Origin: a virus
Lineage: Duplodnaviria; Heunggongvirae; Uroviricota; Caudoviricetes
Virus record (IMG/VR): IMGVR_UViG_2541047119_000008
Direction: 5' to 3' (one strand)
DNA: 14,184 nucleotides
The stretch's first letter is position 1, and every line of letters starts with the position of its first letter. Of this stretch, positions 9,001 to 12,000 are shown in pieces. Position numbers: made by a program.

Positions 9001-12000
9001 AATTTTGTAGAAGAAGGAAAAACGGTGGCGATTGTTGCCAGTGCAGCCATCAGCAGCGGAGATCTGGTGCAGGTGGGCGATGTTTTTGCGGTGGCGCTGA
9101 CCGATATTCCACAGGGTGAAACAGGCGACGGCATGACCGAAGGTGTGTTTATGCTGCCTAAGCTGAAAACGGATGACATGAAAACGGGTAAGAAGGTTTA
9201 TCTGAAGTCAGGAAAAGTTCAGCTGACTAACAGCGGCTCTGATCCGCTGGTCGGGGTTGTCTGGGCAGATGCCGGAACCAGTGCAGAAGAAGTGCCGGTA
9301 AAACTCAATGTCTGATCCCTTTTCCCGGCTGGCAGCGCGTATGGATGCTATCACGGTCAGAAAGATGGGAAAGACAGCCTCGATTAATGATGTCGATATG
9401 ACTGTGATCCCGGGAGAAACACTGGCAGAGCTGAATGCTCTGTCCGGACCTGCGGTCTCTCTGGTGGTGTTTTCTTCGGGATACCGCCCACGGCGCGGGG
9501 ATCGCGTTGTTTATGACGGACAACAATGGACGGTCACACGGCATGAACGCTTTAACGGTAAGCCAATGATCTTTATTGAGTAAAGAGGTGTGGGATGAAG
9601 GGGCTTGAGAATGCCATCCGCAATCTGAACAGCCTTGATACCCGTATGGTGCCACAGGCCAGCGCATGGGCGATAAACCGTGTGGCACAGAAAGCGGGCT
9701 CGGTTGCCACCCGGCAGGTTGCCGGGAATACCGTTGCGGGAGATAACCAGGTGAAAGGGATCCCCCTGAAACTGGTTCGTCAGCGTGTCCGGGTGTTTAA
9801 AGCCAGTCCGTCAGGAAAAATGACGGCCAGGATCCGCGTTAACCGGGGCAATCTGCCCGCCATTAAGCTGGGGACAGCCCGGGTCAGACTGGCCCAGCGT
9901 GGTGGAAAACTGCAGTACCGTGGCAGTGTGCTGAAGGTGGGTAAATATCTTTTCCGGGATGCGTTTATTCAGCAACTGGCGAATGGTCGCTGGCATGTGA
10001 TGCGGCGTATTGATGGCAAAAATCGTTACCCCATTGATGTGGTGAAAATCCCGCTGTCCGGACCGCTGACACAGGCATTTGAAGATGCCCGCGACCGCAT
10101 CATTGCTGCGGAAATGCCGAAACAGCTGGGGTATGCACTGAAACAACAACTGAGGTTATGGCTGACCCGATGAACCGACATACACAAATCCGCCAGGTCG
10201 TACTGGCACGCCTTCGGGAACAGTGTGGAGACAGCGCCACGTTTTTTGACGGGCTTCCGGCATTTGTTGATGCGCAGGAACTGCCTGCCGTGGCGGTGTG
10301 GCTGAGTGATGCTCAGTACACCGGAAAAATGACGGATGAAGATGACTGGCAGGCTGTTCTGCATATTGCTGTCTTCATCCGGGCACAGGCACCGGATTCA
10401 GAGCTGGATATGTGGATGGAGAGCACCATTTTCCCGGCCCTGAATGATGTATCGGCACTTTCCGGACTCATCGACACCCTGATCCCACTCGGTTTTAACT
10501 ATCAACGTGATAATGAGATGGCCACCTGGGCGATGGCGGAAATCACGTACCAGATCACGTACACGAATTAAGGAGGTGGTAATGACCACGCCAAATCCAC
10601 TGGCAAAGACGAAAGGTGCGGGGACGACGTTCTGGATGTATACCGGCAACGGCGATGCGTTTGCGAACCCTTTGTCGGACACTGACTGGCTGCGTCTTGC
10701 GATGGTGAAGGATCTGCAACCTGGCGAAATGACCGCTGATGCAGAAGATGACACTTATCTCGATGATGAAGATGCAGACTGGAAAACGACAACCCAGGGG
10801 CAGAAATCCGTTGGTGATACTTCGGCGACGCTGGCCTGGCGTCCGGGTGACAGCGGGCAGAAAAAACTGGTTCAGTTGTTCGACTCCGGTGAAGTCTGCG
10901 CGTTTCGTATCAAATATCCCAACGGCACTGTTGATGTTTTCCGCGGCTGGCTGAGCTCACTGGGTAAAACCATTGCCTCAAAAGACGTGATGACCCGCAC
11001 AGTGAAAATCAGCGGTGTGGGGCGTCCATATCTGGCAGAGGAGGGCACTGAAACTGTGGGCGTTACCGGGCTGACGGTGGCACCGGCATCCGCCAGTGTC
11101 AATGTGGGAGCAACCACCACGCTGACCTTTACAGTAAAACCTGACGGAGCCAGTGACAAAGCGATCAGTGTGCATTCGACAGATCCACAGACAGCCACTG
11201 TGACCCTGAACGGACTTGTGGCCACGGTGAAAGGCGTGAAGCAGGGCAGCGTCAGCATTGTGGGCATGACCGCTGACGGGAATTTTGTGGCTGTGGCTGC
11301 GGTGACTGTCAGCGCTGCAGGTTAACAGGACGATACTCATCATTTGCCCCGGTTATCCGGGGCTTTTTTGCAGGTGGAGAACATGATGTTTCTGAAACAG
11401 GGCACGTTTAATTATGAAAAGCAGTCCGTGGTGCTCAGTGAGCTGTCCGGGCTGCAGAGAATTGAATATCTGGCGTTTGTTCAGCAGCGAACGGCAAAGT
11501 TTGATGCCGAAGAGGGAGAACTGCCGGAGGCTGAACGACAGATTGCTTTTCTGCGGATGGGGATGGATATCAATGCCTGGCTGGTTTCCCGCTCACTGTG
11601 GAATGCGGAACAGTCTCAGGATGTTGAGACGCTTTGCGCATCCGTTATTACAACATGGTCGTATGATGCCCTGGGAGCGGGGGCGGAGATGGTTCTGTCG
11701 CTGAGCGGTATGGGAGCCATTGAGAATGCCGGGGATTTGGAGCATGAGGTGCTGACGCCGGAAAAGTCCTGACGCGGGAAATGCAGTTTGTCATGCGGCT
11801 TGCCCGGGAGTTCCGGCGGGCAGACTGGCGGCGGATGCTGTCGGAAATGTCGGCCACTGAGCTTGGTGAGTGGGGCGATTATTTCCGGATGCAGAGCTTC
11901 AGTGATGTGTGGATGGATGCGCAGTTTGCCTCGCTGAAGGCATTGATCGTGAGAATGGTGTCCGGTAGCAGTGATGCTGCGGTGGCTGATTTCAGCCTTT

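What the first reader, a model, noticed from the sequence alone, without database searches (positions are those of the whole stretch)
11748..11781. G/T programmed -1 frameshift overlap with a non-canonical slippery region
The T reading frame is open only from 11748, overlaps the last 8 codons of G in the -1 frame, and has no in-frame ATG until 11781, after the G stop. This is the conserved arrangement in which a fraction of ribosomes shift -1 to make a G-T fusion. Lambda uses G GGA AAG, whereas the only A-rich candidate here is ccg gaa aag (11758-11766), which is not a perfect XXXYYYZ heptamer. The shift may occur at a variant site or by single-tRNA slippage on AAG.
Basis: partly seen in the sequence, partly recalled or inferred. 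Interest (0 to 1): 0.4.

Follow-up and report, generated by a model that had tools for sequence, protein, structure and literature searches.

The report
Phage tail chaperone G/T frameshift site
This is the usual -1 ribosomal frameshift signal that lets lambda-like phages make a small amount of a fused G-T tail-assembly chaperone. It uses GGAAAAG, a one-base variant of lambda's GGGAAAG that is already annotated in phages such as N15, so it is real but ordinary.

Summary
G (11383/11386-11772) is a lambda gpG equivalog. The -1 frame is open from 11748 to 12110 and encodes a lambda gpT equivalog. That frame has no ATG, GTG or TTG before 11781.

The shift site is G_GAA_AAG at 11760-11766. It sits at the same position as lambda's G_GGA_AAG and differs from it by one base. 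In 39 sequence clusters of G/T homologs the site reads GGNAAAG, and 30 of the 39 have G_GAA_AAG. The first G is a wobble base in the G frame. It is kept in 38 of 39 clusters across eight different preceding codons, while neighbouring wobble sites are essentially free. This points to selection on the RNA and to re-pairing of the P-site tRNA-Glu on GGA, with a G.U pair in the middle position.

ATG 11781 is a Leu or Arg codon in other lineages and has the weakest Shine-Dalgarno match locally, so T is probably not made on its own. No conserved stimulatory RNA structure was found.

GenBank records for N15 and phage LLS already annotate GGAAAAG as the -1 slippery sequence. Viable phages (Ayreon, mEp460) carry the identical overlap. 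The finding is therefore a known kind and of low interest. In this copy an IS3-family element interrupts the downstream tape-measure gene.

The parts
10582..11325 (+). Major tail tube gene (lambda V homolog), the upstream neighbour of G
   Evidence: Pfam Phage_TTP_12 at 1.2e-66 plus a Big_2 domain. Coordinates match the PGAP CDS in the 100%-identical O157:H7 prophage.
11346..11369 (+). GC-rich hairpin followed by TTTTTT between V and G; an intrinsic-terminator-like attenuator
   Evidence: Terminator scan. A terminator is annotated at the same place in Ayreon, mEp460 and N15.
11386..11772 (+). Gene G, tail assembly chaperone (128 aa; 129 aa if the ATG at 11383 is used); the zero frame
   Evidence: PF06894 at 1.8e-39. 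TIGR01674 equivalog at 190.8 bits against a cut-off of 74.45. Translation.
11746..11751 (+). GAGGTG, a Shine-Dalgarno-like hexamer 8 nt upstream of the heptamer; a possible lineage-specific stimulator (inferred only)
   Evidence: Anti-SD duplex of -9.3 kcal/mol, in the top 6% of its own G ORF. It is not conserved across the family (median percentile 0.32), and many close relatives have GAGGCG instead.
11760..11766 (+). Slippery heptamer G_GAA_AAG. tRNA-Glu and tRNA-Lys slip from GAA_AAG to GGA_AAA
   Evidence: Same position as lambda G_GGA_AAG. 30 of 39 clusters have it, and position 1 is G in 38 of 39. The same heptamer is annotated as the slippery sequence in N15 and LLS.
11770..11772 (+). 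G stop codon (TGA), one codon after the heptamer
11766..12110 (+). T segment in the -1 frame, read after the shift: 114 codons starting VLTREMQF. The frame is open from 11748
   Evidence: PF06223 at 5.1e-15. TIGR01715 equivalog at 136.8 bits against a cut-off of 77.35. T-frame residues directly after the heptamer are conserved (K-V/A-L-x-x-E-L-x-F).
11781..11783 (+). ATG that databases use as the start of a stand-alone T. It is not a conserved start codon
   Evidence: The homologous codon is CTG or CTT in lambda, Gifsy-1, Gifsy-2 and Fels-1, and Leu or Arg in most clusters. Its best SD match is -4.3 kcal/mol at zero spacing, against -7.2 to -15.3 for neighbouring genes.
12082..13773 (+). Tape-measure gene (lambda H homolog), which overlaps the end of T. 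It is truncated here
   Evidence: PF06791 at 2.3e-49. Homology to the intact 3066-nt gene of L007 ends at 13773. IS3-family IS1203-like sequence follows.

Best explanation
This is a programmed -1 ribosomal frameshift at G_GAA_AAG (11760-11766). Most ribosomes read G through to the TGA at 11770 and make the 128/129-aa chaperone. A small fraction slip one base back while tRNA-Glu (on GAA) and tRNA-Lys (on AAG) occupy the P and A sites. tRNA-Lys re-pairs perfectly on AAA. tRNA-Glu re-pairs on GGA with C36:G, a U35.G wobble in the middle position, and U34:A. Those ribosomes continue in the T frame from GTC at 11766 to 12110. The product is a 241/242-aa G-T fusion with the junction ...LTPEK|VLTREMQF... 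By analogy with lambda, the G part binds the tape-measure protein and the T part recruits the major tail protein, with the slip rate fixing the G:GT ratio.

Shown here: the frame geometry, the homology, the positional equivalence to lambda's site, and nucleotide-level conservation of the heptamer. Inferred: that the shift occurs, its rate, and that both tRNAs slip.
For: Geometry.

Homology: G and T are equivalogs of lambda gpG and gpT. A PHROG of fused proteins covers G at profile positions 1-119 and T at 141-252. The gene order is V-G-T-H.

Position: the heptamer aligns with lambda's G_GGA_AAG and differs by a single G-to-A change. The T-frame peptides align without gaps from the Lys codon onward.

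Conservation across 39 clusters below 90% nt identity: the consensus is G-G-N-A-A-A-G. Position 1 is G in 38 of 39 clusters (1.83 bits), after the codons GCG, CCG, CTG, TTG, ACG, GTG, AAG and ATG. The background frequency of G-ending codons in these genes is 0.40, and nearby wobble sites carry 0.02-0.10 bits. Position 7 is G in 36 of 39.

After the heptamer, the G frame runs 0 to 5 further codons before its stop in different lineages, while the T-frame residues are conserved.

ATG 11781 is not conserved and has the poorest SD match locally.

The identical 32-nt overlap is present in the plaque-forming phages Ayreon and mEp460. GGAAAAG is annotated as the -1 slippery sequence in N15 and, with a joined CDS, in phage LLS. 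It is also present in phi80 and HK225.

[quoted passage not shown] An A.U-to-G.U change carries only a moderate penalty, and the AAG-to-AAA change in the A site is favourable (PMC6787027).
Against: There is no experimental evidence for this lineage. In a purified E. coli translation system, G GAA AAG was used as the 'less slippery' control in which 'only one tRNA can slip', and it gave mainly 0-frame product with wild-type EF-G (PMC6924986).

No stimulatory element was established. The downstream fold is no better than shuffled sequence (z -0.18 to -0.96). There is no conserved structure across 19 homologs and no Rfam match. The upstream SD-like GAGGTG is lineage-specific and polymorphic.

The clusters are phylogenetically related, so 38 of 39 overstates independence. 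Counting only distinct degenerate codon types (6 of 7 ending in G) gives P of about 0.02 by my arithmetic.

The loci were fetched with patterns from an alignment dominated by GGAAAAG phages, so 30 of 39 is not an unbiased census.

In this copy the tape-measure gene is broken by an IS element, so the signal may currently serve no purpose here.
Confidence: 0.62

Rival explanations
1. The site and the G-T product are the same, but only tRNA-Lys slips, on the tetranucleotide A_AAG. It could slip in the A site with tRNA-Glu merely releasing the third base of its codon, or in the P site with an empty A site. tRNA-Glu does not re-pair.
For: [quoted passage not shown] A_AAG alone supports low-level -1 shifting in E. 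coli and is used at G_CGA_AAG in IS1222 and at A_CGA_AAG in Bacillus cdd (PMC5009743). Some lineages have G_GTA_AAG or A_GAA_AAG, where P-site re-pairing is poor. Only a few per cent of shifting is needed.
Against: Heptamer position 1 has no role in this model, yet it is G in 38 of 39 clusters at a wobble position across eight codon types. The P-site codon is always GNA, while the amino acid varies among Glu, Gly, Val and Ala. That pattern fits constraint on nucleotides, not on the protein.
Confidence: 0.25
2. T is made on its own as a 109-aa protein from ATG 11781, as public annotation shows it. Initiation might be by re-initiation after the G stop 8 nt upstream. No fusion would be needed.
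For: PGAP and most phage records annotate separate G and T genes. The exact fusion is absent from a 15-billion-protein collection, while the 109-aa T sits in a cluster of 1148 members. The ATG lies close behind the G stop, which in principle allows translational coupling.
Against: The ATG is a Leu or Arg codon in lambda, Gifsy-1, Gifsy-2, Fels-1, N15 and most clusters. Its best SD match is -4.3 kcal/mol at zero spacing, against -7.2 to -15.3 for neighbouring starts. T-frame residues upstream of the ATG (K-V-L-T-R-E) are conserved as protein. The heptamer shows synonymous-site conservation that this model does not explain. In lambda the T domain works only when tethered to G (PMC5009743).
Confidence: 0.06
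3. RNA polymerase, not the ribosome, slips on the A run. It would produce a minority of mRNAs with one A deleted, and these would encode G-T.
For: A -1 change in the mRNA within AAAA would give the same fusion protein.
Against: The run is only four A's. Known transcriptional slippage sites use much longer homopolymers (established knowledge; reviewed in PMC5009743). The conserved flanking G at position 1 and the AAG-over-AAA preference at position 7 are hallmarks of tRNA re-pairing, not of polymerase slippage.
Confidence: 0.02

Closest known systems
Phage lambda G / G-T programmed -1 frameshift (G_GGA_AAG)
   Same: Same gene order (V-G-T-H). Equivalog G and T proteins. T is in the -1 frame without a conserved start. 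The shift site is at the same aligned position a few codons before the G stop. The A-site codon is the same (AAG to AAA). No evident downstream stimulator in the window.
   Different: Heptamer position 3 is A instead of G, so the P-site codon is GAA (Glu) rather than GGA (Gly). Re-pairing therefore needs a middle-position G.U. The G tail after the site is 1 codon here against 5 in lambda. Lambda has a strong hairpin about 34 nt downstream (z -3.7) that the window lacks. T-protein identity is only about 37-39%.
Phage N15 genes 14/15, phage LLS genes 11/12, also phi80 and HK225
   Same: The same heptamer, GGAAAAG, in the same phase. It is explicitly annotated as 'slippery sequence for -1 translational frameshift' in N15 and as 'minus-one programmed translational frameshift site GGAAAAG' with a joined CDS in LLS.
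   Different: A different lineage, with about 44-46% T-protein identity. The context is GCG/GTG GAA AAG CCC TYG CCA GYG AGC TGA, with 5 more G codons. These phages have a strong downstream hairpin (z -4.2 to -4.6) and no SD-like element upstream.
Gifsy-1, Gifsy-2 and Fels-1 prophages of Salmonella
   Same: The closest non-E. coli relatives (67-70% nt identity). They share the ACR CCG GAA AAG YCC TGA overlap. Gifsy-1 and Gifsy-2 T genes are annotated as the frameshift part of gpG.
   Different: The codon homologous to ATG 11781 is CTG or CTT in them. Their upstream acidic region differs.
Tetranucleotide A_AAG -1 shift sites (IS1222 G_CGA_AAG; Bacillus subtilis cdd A_CGA_AAG)
   Same: tRNA-Lys slips from AAG to AAA behind a P-site codon ending in A that cannot re-pair canonically (PMC5009743).
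   Different: Here the base 5' of the P-site codon is conserved, and GAA to GGA retains pairing through G.U. The site therefore behaves as a near-cognate heptamer rather than a bare tetramer.
E. coli dnaX (A_AAA_AAG with upstream SD-like element and downstream hairpin)
   Same: Same A-site event. The window has an SD-like GAGGTG at a similar distance upstream (8-10 nt).
   Different: No downstream hairpin. The SD-like element is not conserved in the family. The product is an extension, not a truncation. The expected efficiency is a few per cent, not about 50%.

Membership tests
Lambda-type tail assembly chaperone pair G / G-T made by programmed -1 frameshift | Two overlapping ORFs located between the major tail protein gene and the tape-measure gene | tested here: met
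   V homolog at 10582-11325, G at 11386-11772, T frame at 11748-12110, tape measure from 12082.
Lambda-type tail assembly chaperone pair G / G-T made by programmed -1 frameshift | The upstream ORF is a gpG homolog | tested here: met
   PF06894 at 1.8e-39. TIGR01674 equivalog at 190.8 bits against a cut-off of 74.45.
Lambda-type tail assembly chaperone pair G / G-T made by programmed -1 frameshift | The downstream ORF is a gpT homolog in the -1 frame without a conserved initiation codon of its own | tested here: met
   PF06223 at 5.1e-15 and TIGR01715 at 136.8 bits against a cut-off of 77.35. The -1 phase follows from the coordinates. ATG 11781 is not conserved and has a poor SD match.
Lambda-type tail assembly chaperone pair G / G-T made by programmed -1 frameshift | A canonical X_XXY_YYZ slippery heptamer in the overlap | tested here: not met
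   The site is G_GAA_AAG, and the first three bases, GGA, are not identical. It is a one-base variant of lambda's heptamer.
Lambda-type tail assembly chaperone pair G / G-T made by programmed -1 frameshift | A shift-prone site at the homologous position that is conserved at synonymous positions | tested here: met
   Consensus GGNAAAG in 39 clusters. Wobble-position G1 in 38 of 39 and G7 in 36 of 39. The heptamer is annotated as slippery in N15 and LLS.
Lambda-type tail assembly chaperone pair G / G-T made by programmed -1 frameshift | A G-T fusion protein is made at a few per cent of G and is required for tail assembly | not testable with these tools
   This needs a reporter assay, western blot, mass spectrometry or genetics. 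The only indirect support is that viable phages Ayreon and mEp460 carry the identical overlap.
Single-tRNA A_AAG tetranucleotide -1 shift sites | A_AAG in the zero-frame phase | tested here: met
   GAA AAG at 11761-11766 is in the G frame.
Single-tRNA A_AAG tetranucleotide -1 shift sites | No sequence requirement 5' of the P-site codon | tested here: not met
   The base 5' of the P-site codon is G in 38 of 39 clusters, although it is a wobble position.
dnaX-type tripartite -1 signal | A Shine-Dalgarno-like sequence about 10 nt upstream of the heptamer | tested here: inconclusive
   GAGGTG at 11746-11751 gives -9.3 kcal/mol, in the top 6% of its own ORF. It is polymorphic (GAGGCG) in close relatives and absent in most clusters.
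dnaX-type tripartite -1 signal | A stable hairpin or pseudoknot 5-9 nt downstream | tested here: not met
   z-scores of -0.18, +0.09 and -0.96 for the 80, 60 and 100 nt downstream. No consensus structure. No Rfam match.

The most novel reading that the evidence does not exclude
G_GAA_AAG behaves as a poorly slippery 'one-tRNA' sequence in a purified E. coli system. Yet it, not lambda's canonical G_GGA_AAG, is the predominant form of the G/T shift site in Enterobacterales prophages and is kept by selection. If so, either these phages run on a much lower GT:G ratio than lambda, or the ribosome accepts a middle-position G.U in the P site in vivo, or unrecognised lineage-specific stimulators set the rate. 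Candidate stimulators are the SD-like GAGGTG 8 nt upstream here, GGGGAGGA in the Pantoea G_GTA_AAG lineages, and an adjacent stop codon in Proteus, Providencia and Morganella. The family would then be a natural series for measuring how P-site mismatch and stimulators trade off.
Probability: 0.25. Interest if true: 0.4.

Novelty: already known. Interest (0 to 1): 0.15.

Why it matters
The main value is for annotation. In this very common E. coli and Shigella prophage family, T is filed everywhere as a stand-alone 109-aa protein starting at a non-conserved ATG. The family is matched in 1,848 of 5,426 complete E. coli genomes. The real product, a 241/242-aa G-T fusion, is missing from protein databases.

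There is also a modest mechanistic point. The family shows that the textbook XXXYYYZ rule is too strict for this signal. The conserved pattern is GGNAAAG, usually with a near-cognate P-site re-pairing. Frameshift predictors should accept this pattern.

Nothing here changes how the G/T system is understood.

Tried and rejected
- **Downstream stimulatory structure.** I folded 60, 80 and 100 nt after the heptamer and found nothing better than shuffled sequence. RNAalifold on 19 homologs returned only a trivial 4-bp stem with no covariation. Rejected for the window. Lambda, N15 and phi80-type sequences do have a strong hairpin, but it lies about 34 nt downstream.
- **Rfam scan of the whole window.** No match.
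- **Upstream SD-like stimulator as a family feature.** Rejected: the median percentile is 0.32, and only 6 of 39 clusters reach the top 10%. I keep it only as a lineage-specific possibility.
- **Independent T start.** Rejected as the main route.
- **Transcriptional slippage.** Rejected because the A run is only 4 bases long.
- **Literature.** The Mol Cell 2004 survey of tail-gene frameshifts is not held. Searches for the heptamer together with phage terms returned only the EF-G paper. Searches on N15 and phi80 returned nothing relevant. I could therefore not check whether G_GAA_AAG efficiency has ever been measured in vivo.
- **Exact look-up of the predicted fusion protein.** Not in the collection.
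Full report
**What is there**

The window is the late-gene region of a lambdoid siphovirus prophage of the cdtI / mEp460 / Ayreon type. Bases 11340-12140 are 97.6-99.9% identical to 17 phage records. They match 1,848 of 5,426 complete E. coli genomes and are 100% identical to O157:H7 prophages.

The G frame runs from ATG 11383 or 11386 to the TGA at 11770-11772. The -1 frame has a TGA at 11745-11747 and is then open from 11748 to 12110. Its first ATG, GTG or TTG is the ATG at 11781. The overlap reads GAG GTG CTG ACG CCG GAA AAG TCC TGA.

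**Identity of the genes**

- G matches Pfam Phage_TAC_2 (1.8e-39) and the NCBIfam equivalog for lambda G (190.8 bits against a cut-off of 74.45).
- The -1 frame matches Phage_tail_T (5.1e-15) and the equivalog for lambda T (136.8 bits against a cut-off of 77.35).
- A PHROG built from fused proteins covers G with profile positions 1-119 and T with positions 141-252.
- The neighbours are a lambda V-type tail tube gene upstream and a tape-measure gene starting at 12082.

**The shift site**

Lambda's heptamer G GGA AAG (L006 510-516) and the window's G GAA AAG (11760-11766) occupy the same aligned position. The T-frame peptides that follow align without gaps: K-V-F-D-G-E-L-S-F in lambda and K-V-L-T-R-E-M-Q-F in the window. 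The window's site is therefore lambda's heptamer with one G-to-A change at position 3.

The heptamer by itself is not rare in the window: 6 copies against 2.0 expected. However, the other three + strand copies are in the GGA_AAA_G phase of their genes. Only 11760 is in the shift-prone phase.

**Comparative evidence**

I fetched relatives from phage records, viral contigs and one genome per bacterial species. For each I located the T frame, the G stop and the in-phase A_AAR site. I then clustered the G-T regions at 90% nucleotide identity, which gave 39 clusters after dropping one outlier.

| Site | Clusters | Where |
|---|---|---|
| G_GAA_AAG | 30 | the window, Gifsy-1, Gifsy-2, Fels-1, N15, phi80-like and many Enterobacterales |
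| G_GGA_AAG | 3 | lambda, E. albertii, Edwardsiella |
| G_GTA_AAG | 2 | Pantoea |
| G_GCA_AAA_TAG | 2 | Kluyvera (L096), Ewingella (L098) |
| A_GAA_AAG_TAA | 1 | Morganella |
| G_GGA_AAA_TAG | 1 | Providencia (L135) |

The consensus is G-G-N-A-A-A-G. Position 1 is the wobble base of the preceding G-frame codon. It is G in 38 of 39 clusters (1.83 bits), behind GCG, CCG, CTG, TTG, ACG, GTG, AAG and ATG. In the same genes, G-ending codons of these families make up 0.40 of the total. The wobble positions at -3, -6, -9 and -15 carry 0.02-0.10 bits. Position 7 is G in 36 of 39.

The P-site codon is always GNA, while its amino acid varies among Glu, Gly, Val and Ala. After the heptamer the G frame continues for 0 to 5 codons in different lineages, whereas the T-frame residues are conserved. 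These are the signatures expected if the RNA sequence itself is selected and the T frame is read from this exact point.

There are caveats. The clusters are related by descent. Counting only distinct degenerate codon types (6 of 7 ending in G) gives P of about 0.02 by my arithmetic. The loci were also retrieved with patterns from an alignment rich in GGAAAAG phages, so the share of 30 in 39 is not a census.

**Mechanism**

The best reading is tandem -1 slippage. tRNA-Lys moves from AAG to AAA. tRNA-Glu moves from GAA to GGA, keeping C36:G and U34:A and forming U35.G in the middle. The conserved G at position 1 is what this model needs. It is unexplained if only tRNA-Lys slips on A_AAG.

The literature supports the parts of this model:

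- An A.U-to-G.U change carries a moderate penalty, and the AAG-to-AAA change in the A site is favourable (PMC6787027).
- The authors of PRFect suggest G:U pairing to explain non-canonical motifs (PMC10885494).

Against a high rate, Peng et al. used exactly G GAA AAG in a purified system as the 'less slippery' sequence in which 'only one tRNA can slip', and saw mainly 0-frame product with wild-type EF-G (PMC6924986). I therefore give the two-tRNA version about 0.62 and the single-tRNA version about 0.25. Both yield the same fusion...LTPEK|VLTREMQF..., of 241/242 aa.

**Stimulators**

The downstream sequence folds no better than shuffles (z -0.18, +0.09 and -0.96). Nineteen homologs share no structure, and Rfam finds nothing.

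Upstream, GAGGTG (11746-11751) can pair with the anti-SD at -9.3 kcal/mol, 8 nt before the heptamer. That places it in the top 6% of its own ORF. However, many close relatives have GAGGCG, and across the family the median percentile is 0.32. It is a possibility for this lineage, not a family feature.

There is a weak trend that I did not test further. The Pantoea G_GTA_AAG clusters, which have the worst P-site re-pairing, have the strongest SD-like elements (-11 kcal/mol). The canonical G_GGA_AAR clusters mostly have weak ones: three of four lie between -1.0 and -2.5, and the Edwardsiella cluster L133 is at -6.6.

**Rivals**

*Independent translation of T from ATG 11781*, as in PGAP and most phage records, is unlikely to be the main route. 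That codon is Leu or Arg in other lineages. Its SD match is -4.3 kcal/mol with zero spacing, against -7.2 to -15.3 for neighbouring genes. Conserved T-frame residues lie upstream of it.

*Transcriptional slippage* is unlikely on a run of four A's.

**Comparison with what is known**

This is the classical lambda G/G-T arrangement. The variant heptamer is not new:

- The N15 GenBank record marks GGAAAAG as 'slippery sequence for -1 translational frameshift'.
- Phage LLS marks 'minus-one programmed translational frameshift site GGAAAAG' with a joined CDS.
- phi80 and HK225 have the same heptamer.
- The T genes of Gifsy-1 and Gifsy-2 are annotated as the frameshift part of gpG.
- The plaque-forming phages Ayreon and mEp460 carry the identical 32-nt overlap, so the site evidently suffices for tail assembly.

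What is missing is annotation for this lineage. The exact fusion is absent from a 15-billion-protein collection, while separate G and T entries are abundant.

**Verdict**

The 'non-canonical' heptamer is the common, already annotated variant of the family. Novelty: already known. Interest: low (0.15).

In this particular copy, homology to the intact tape-measure gene ends at 13773, followed by IS3-family IS1203-like sequence. The prophage is probably tail-defective, whatever the frameshift does.

Noticed in passing
window 13750-14184 (tape-measure gene 12082-13773): The tape-measure gene is interrupted. Identity to the intact 3066-nt gene of an O157:H7 prophage ends at 13773, and a stop follows at 13807-13809. 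The rest of the window is 99.5% identical to IS3-family IS1203-like elements, with the transposase on the - strand. No complete E. coli genome in the collection has this junction.
   Followed up: partly
window 11346-11369: A perfect 7-bp GC hairpin (GCCCCGG TTAT CCGGGGC) followed by TTTTTT lies between the major tail gene V and G. It looks like an intrinsic terminator or attenuator that would lower G, T and H expression relative to V. The same spot is annotated as a terminator in Ayreon, mEp460 and N15.
   Followed up: partly
L006 517-596 (lambda), L167 608-687 (N15), L121 1208-1287 (phi80-like): These lineages have a very stable hairpin starting about 34 nt 3' of the heptamer (z -3.7 to -4.6, with 0 of 200 shuffles as stable). 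It is built from the codons for LAREFGRPDWRAM. It is too far downstream for a classical -1 stimulator and is absent in the window's lineage (z -0.2).
   Followed up: partly
L134 and L154 (Pantoea); L104, L117, L155 and L100 (Proteus, Providencia, Morganella); L096 and L098 (Kluyvera, Ewingella): Other variants occur at the same site. G_GTA_AAG is preceded by a strong SD-like GGGGAGGA. G_GAA_AAG or A_GAA_AAG is followed directly by a stop codon. G_GCA_AAA_TAG would need P-site slippage of tRNA-Lys at a stop. Together these form a natural series of shift-site and stimulator combinations.
   Followed up: partly
window 11781-12110 and public databases: T is annotated in RefSeq and GenBank as a stand-alone 109-aa protein from ATG 11781, in a cluster of 1148 members. 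The predicted 241/242-aa G-T fusion is not in the 15-billion-protein collection. This looks like a systematic annotation gap for this prophage family.
   Followed up: yes
L139-L151 (genome-contig hits): G/T DNA that is 99% identical to lambda turns up on short, low-coverage contigs in assemblies labelled Neobacillus, Oceanobacillus, Kitasatospora, Chromatium, Shewanella, Pseudomonas, Enterococcus, Paenibacillus and others. This is almost certainly lambda DNA contamination of those assemblies.
   Followed up: no
window 6686-8905: A long ORF corresponds to what PGAP calls a 'ClpP-like prohead protease/major capsid protein fusion protein' in the identical O157:H7 prophage. The head module therefore differs from lambda's even though the tail module is lambda-like.
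   Followed up: no
window 11383-11388: G has two adjacent ATG codons. The SD GGTGGAG (11373-11379) is 3 nt from the first and 6 nt from the second. PGAP uses the second (128 aa), while phage records use the first (129 aa).
   Followed up: partly
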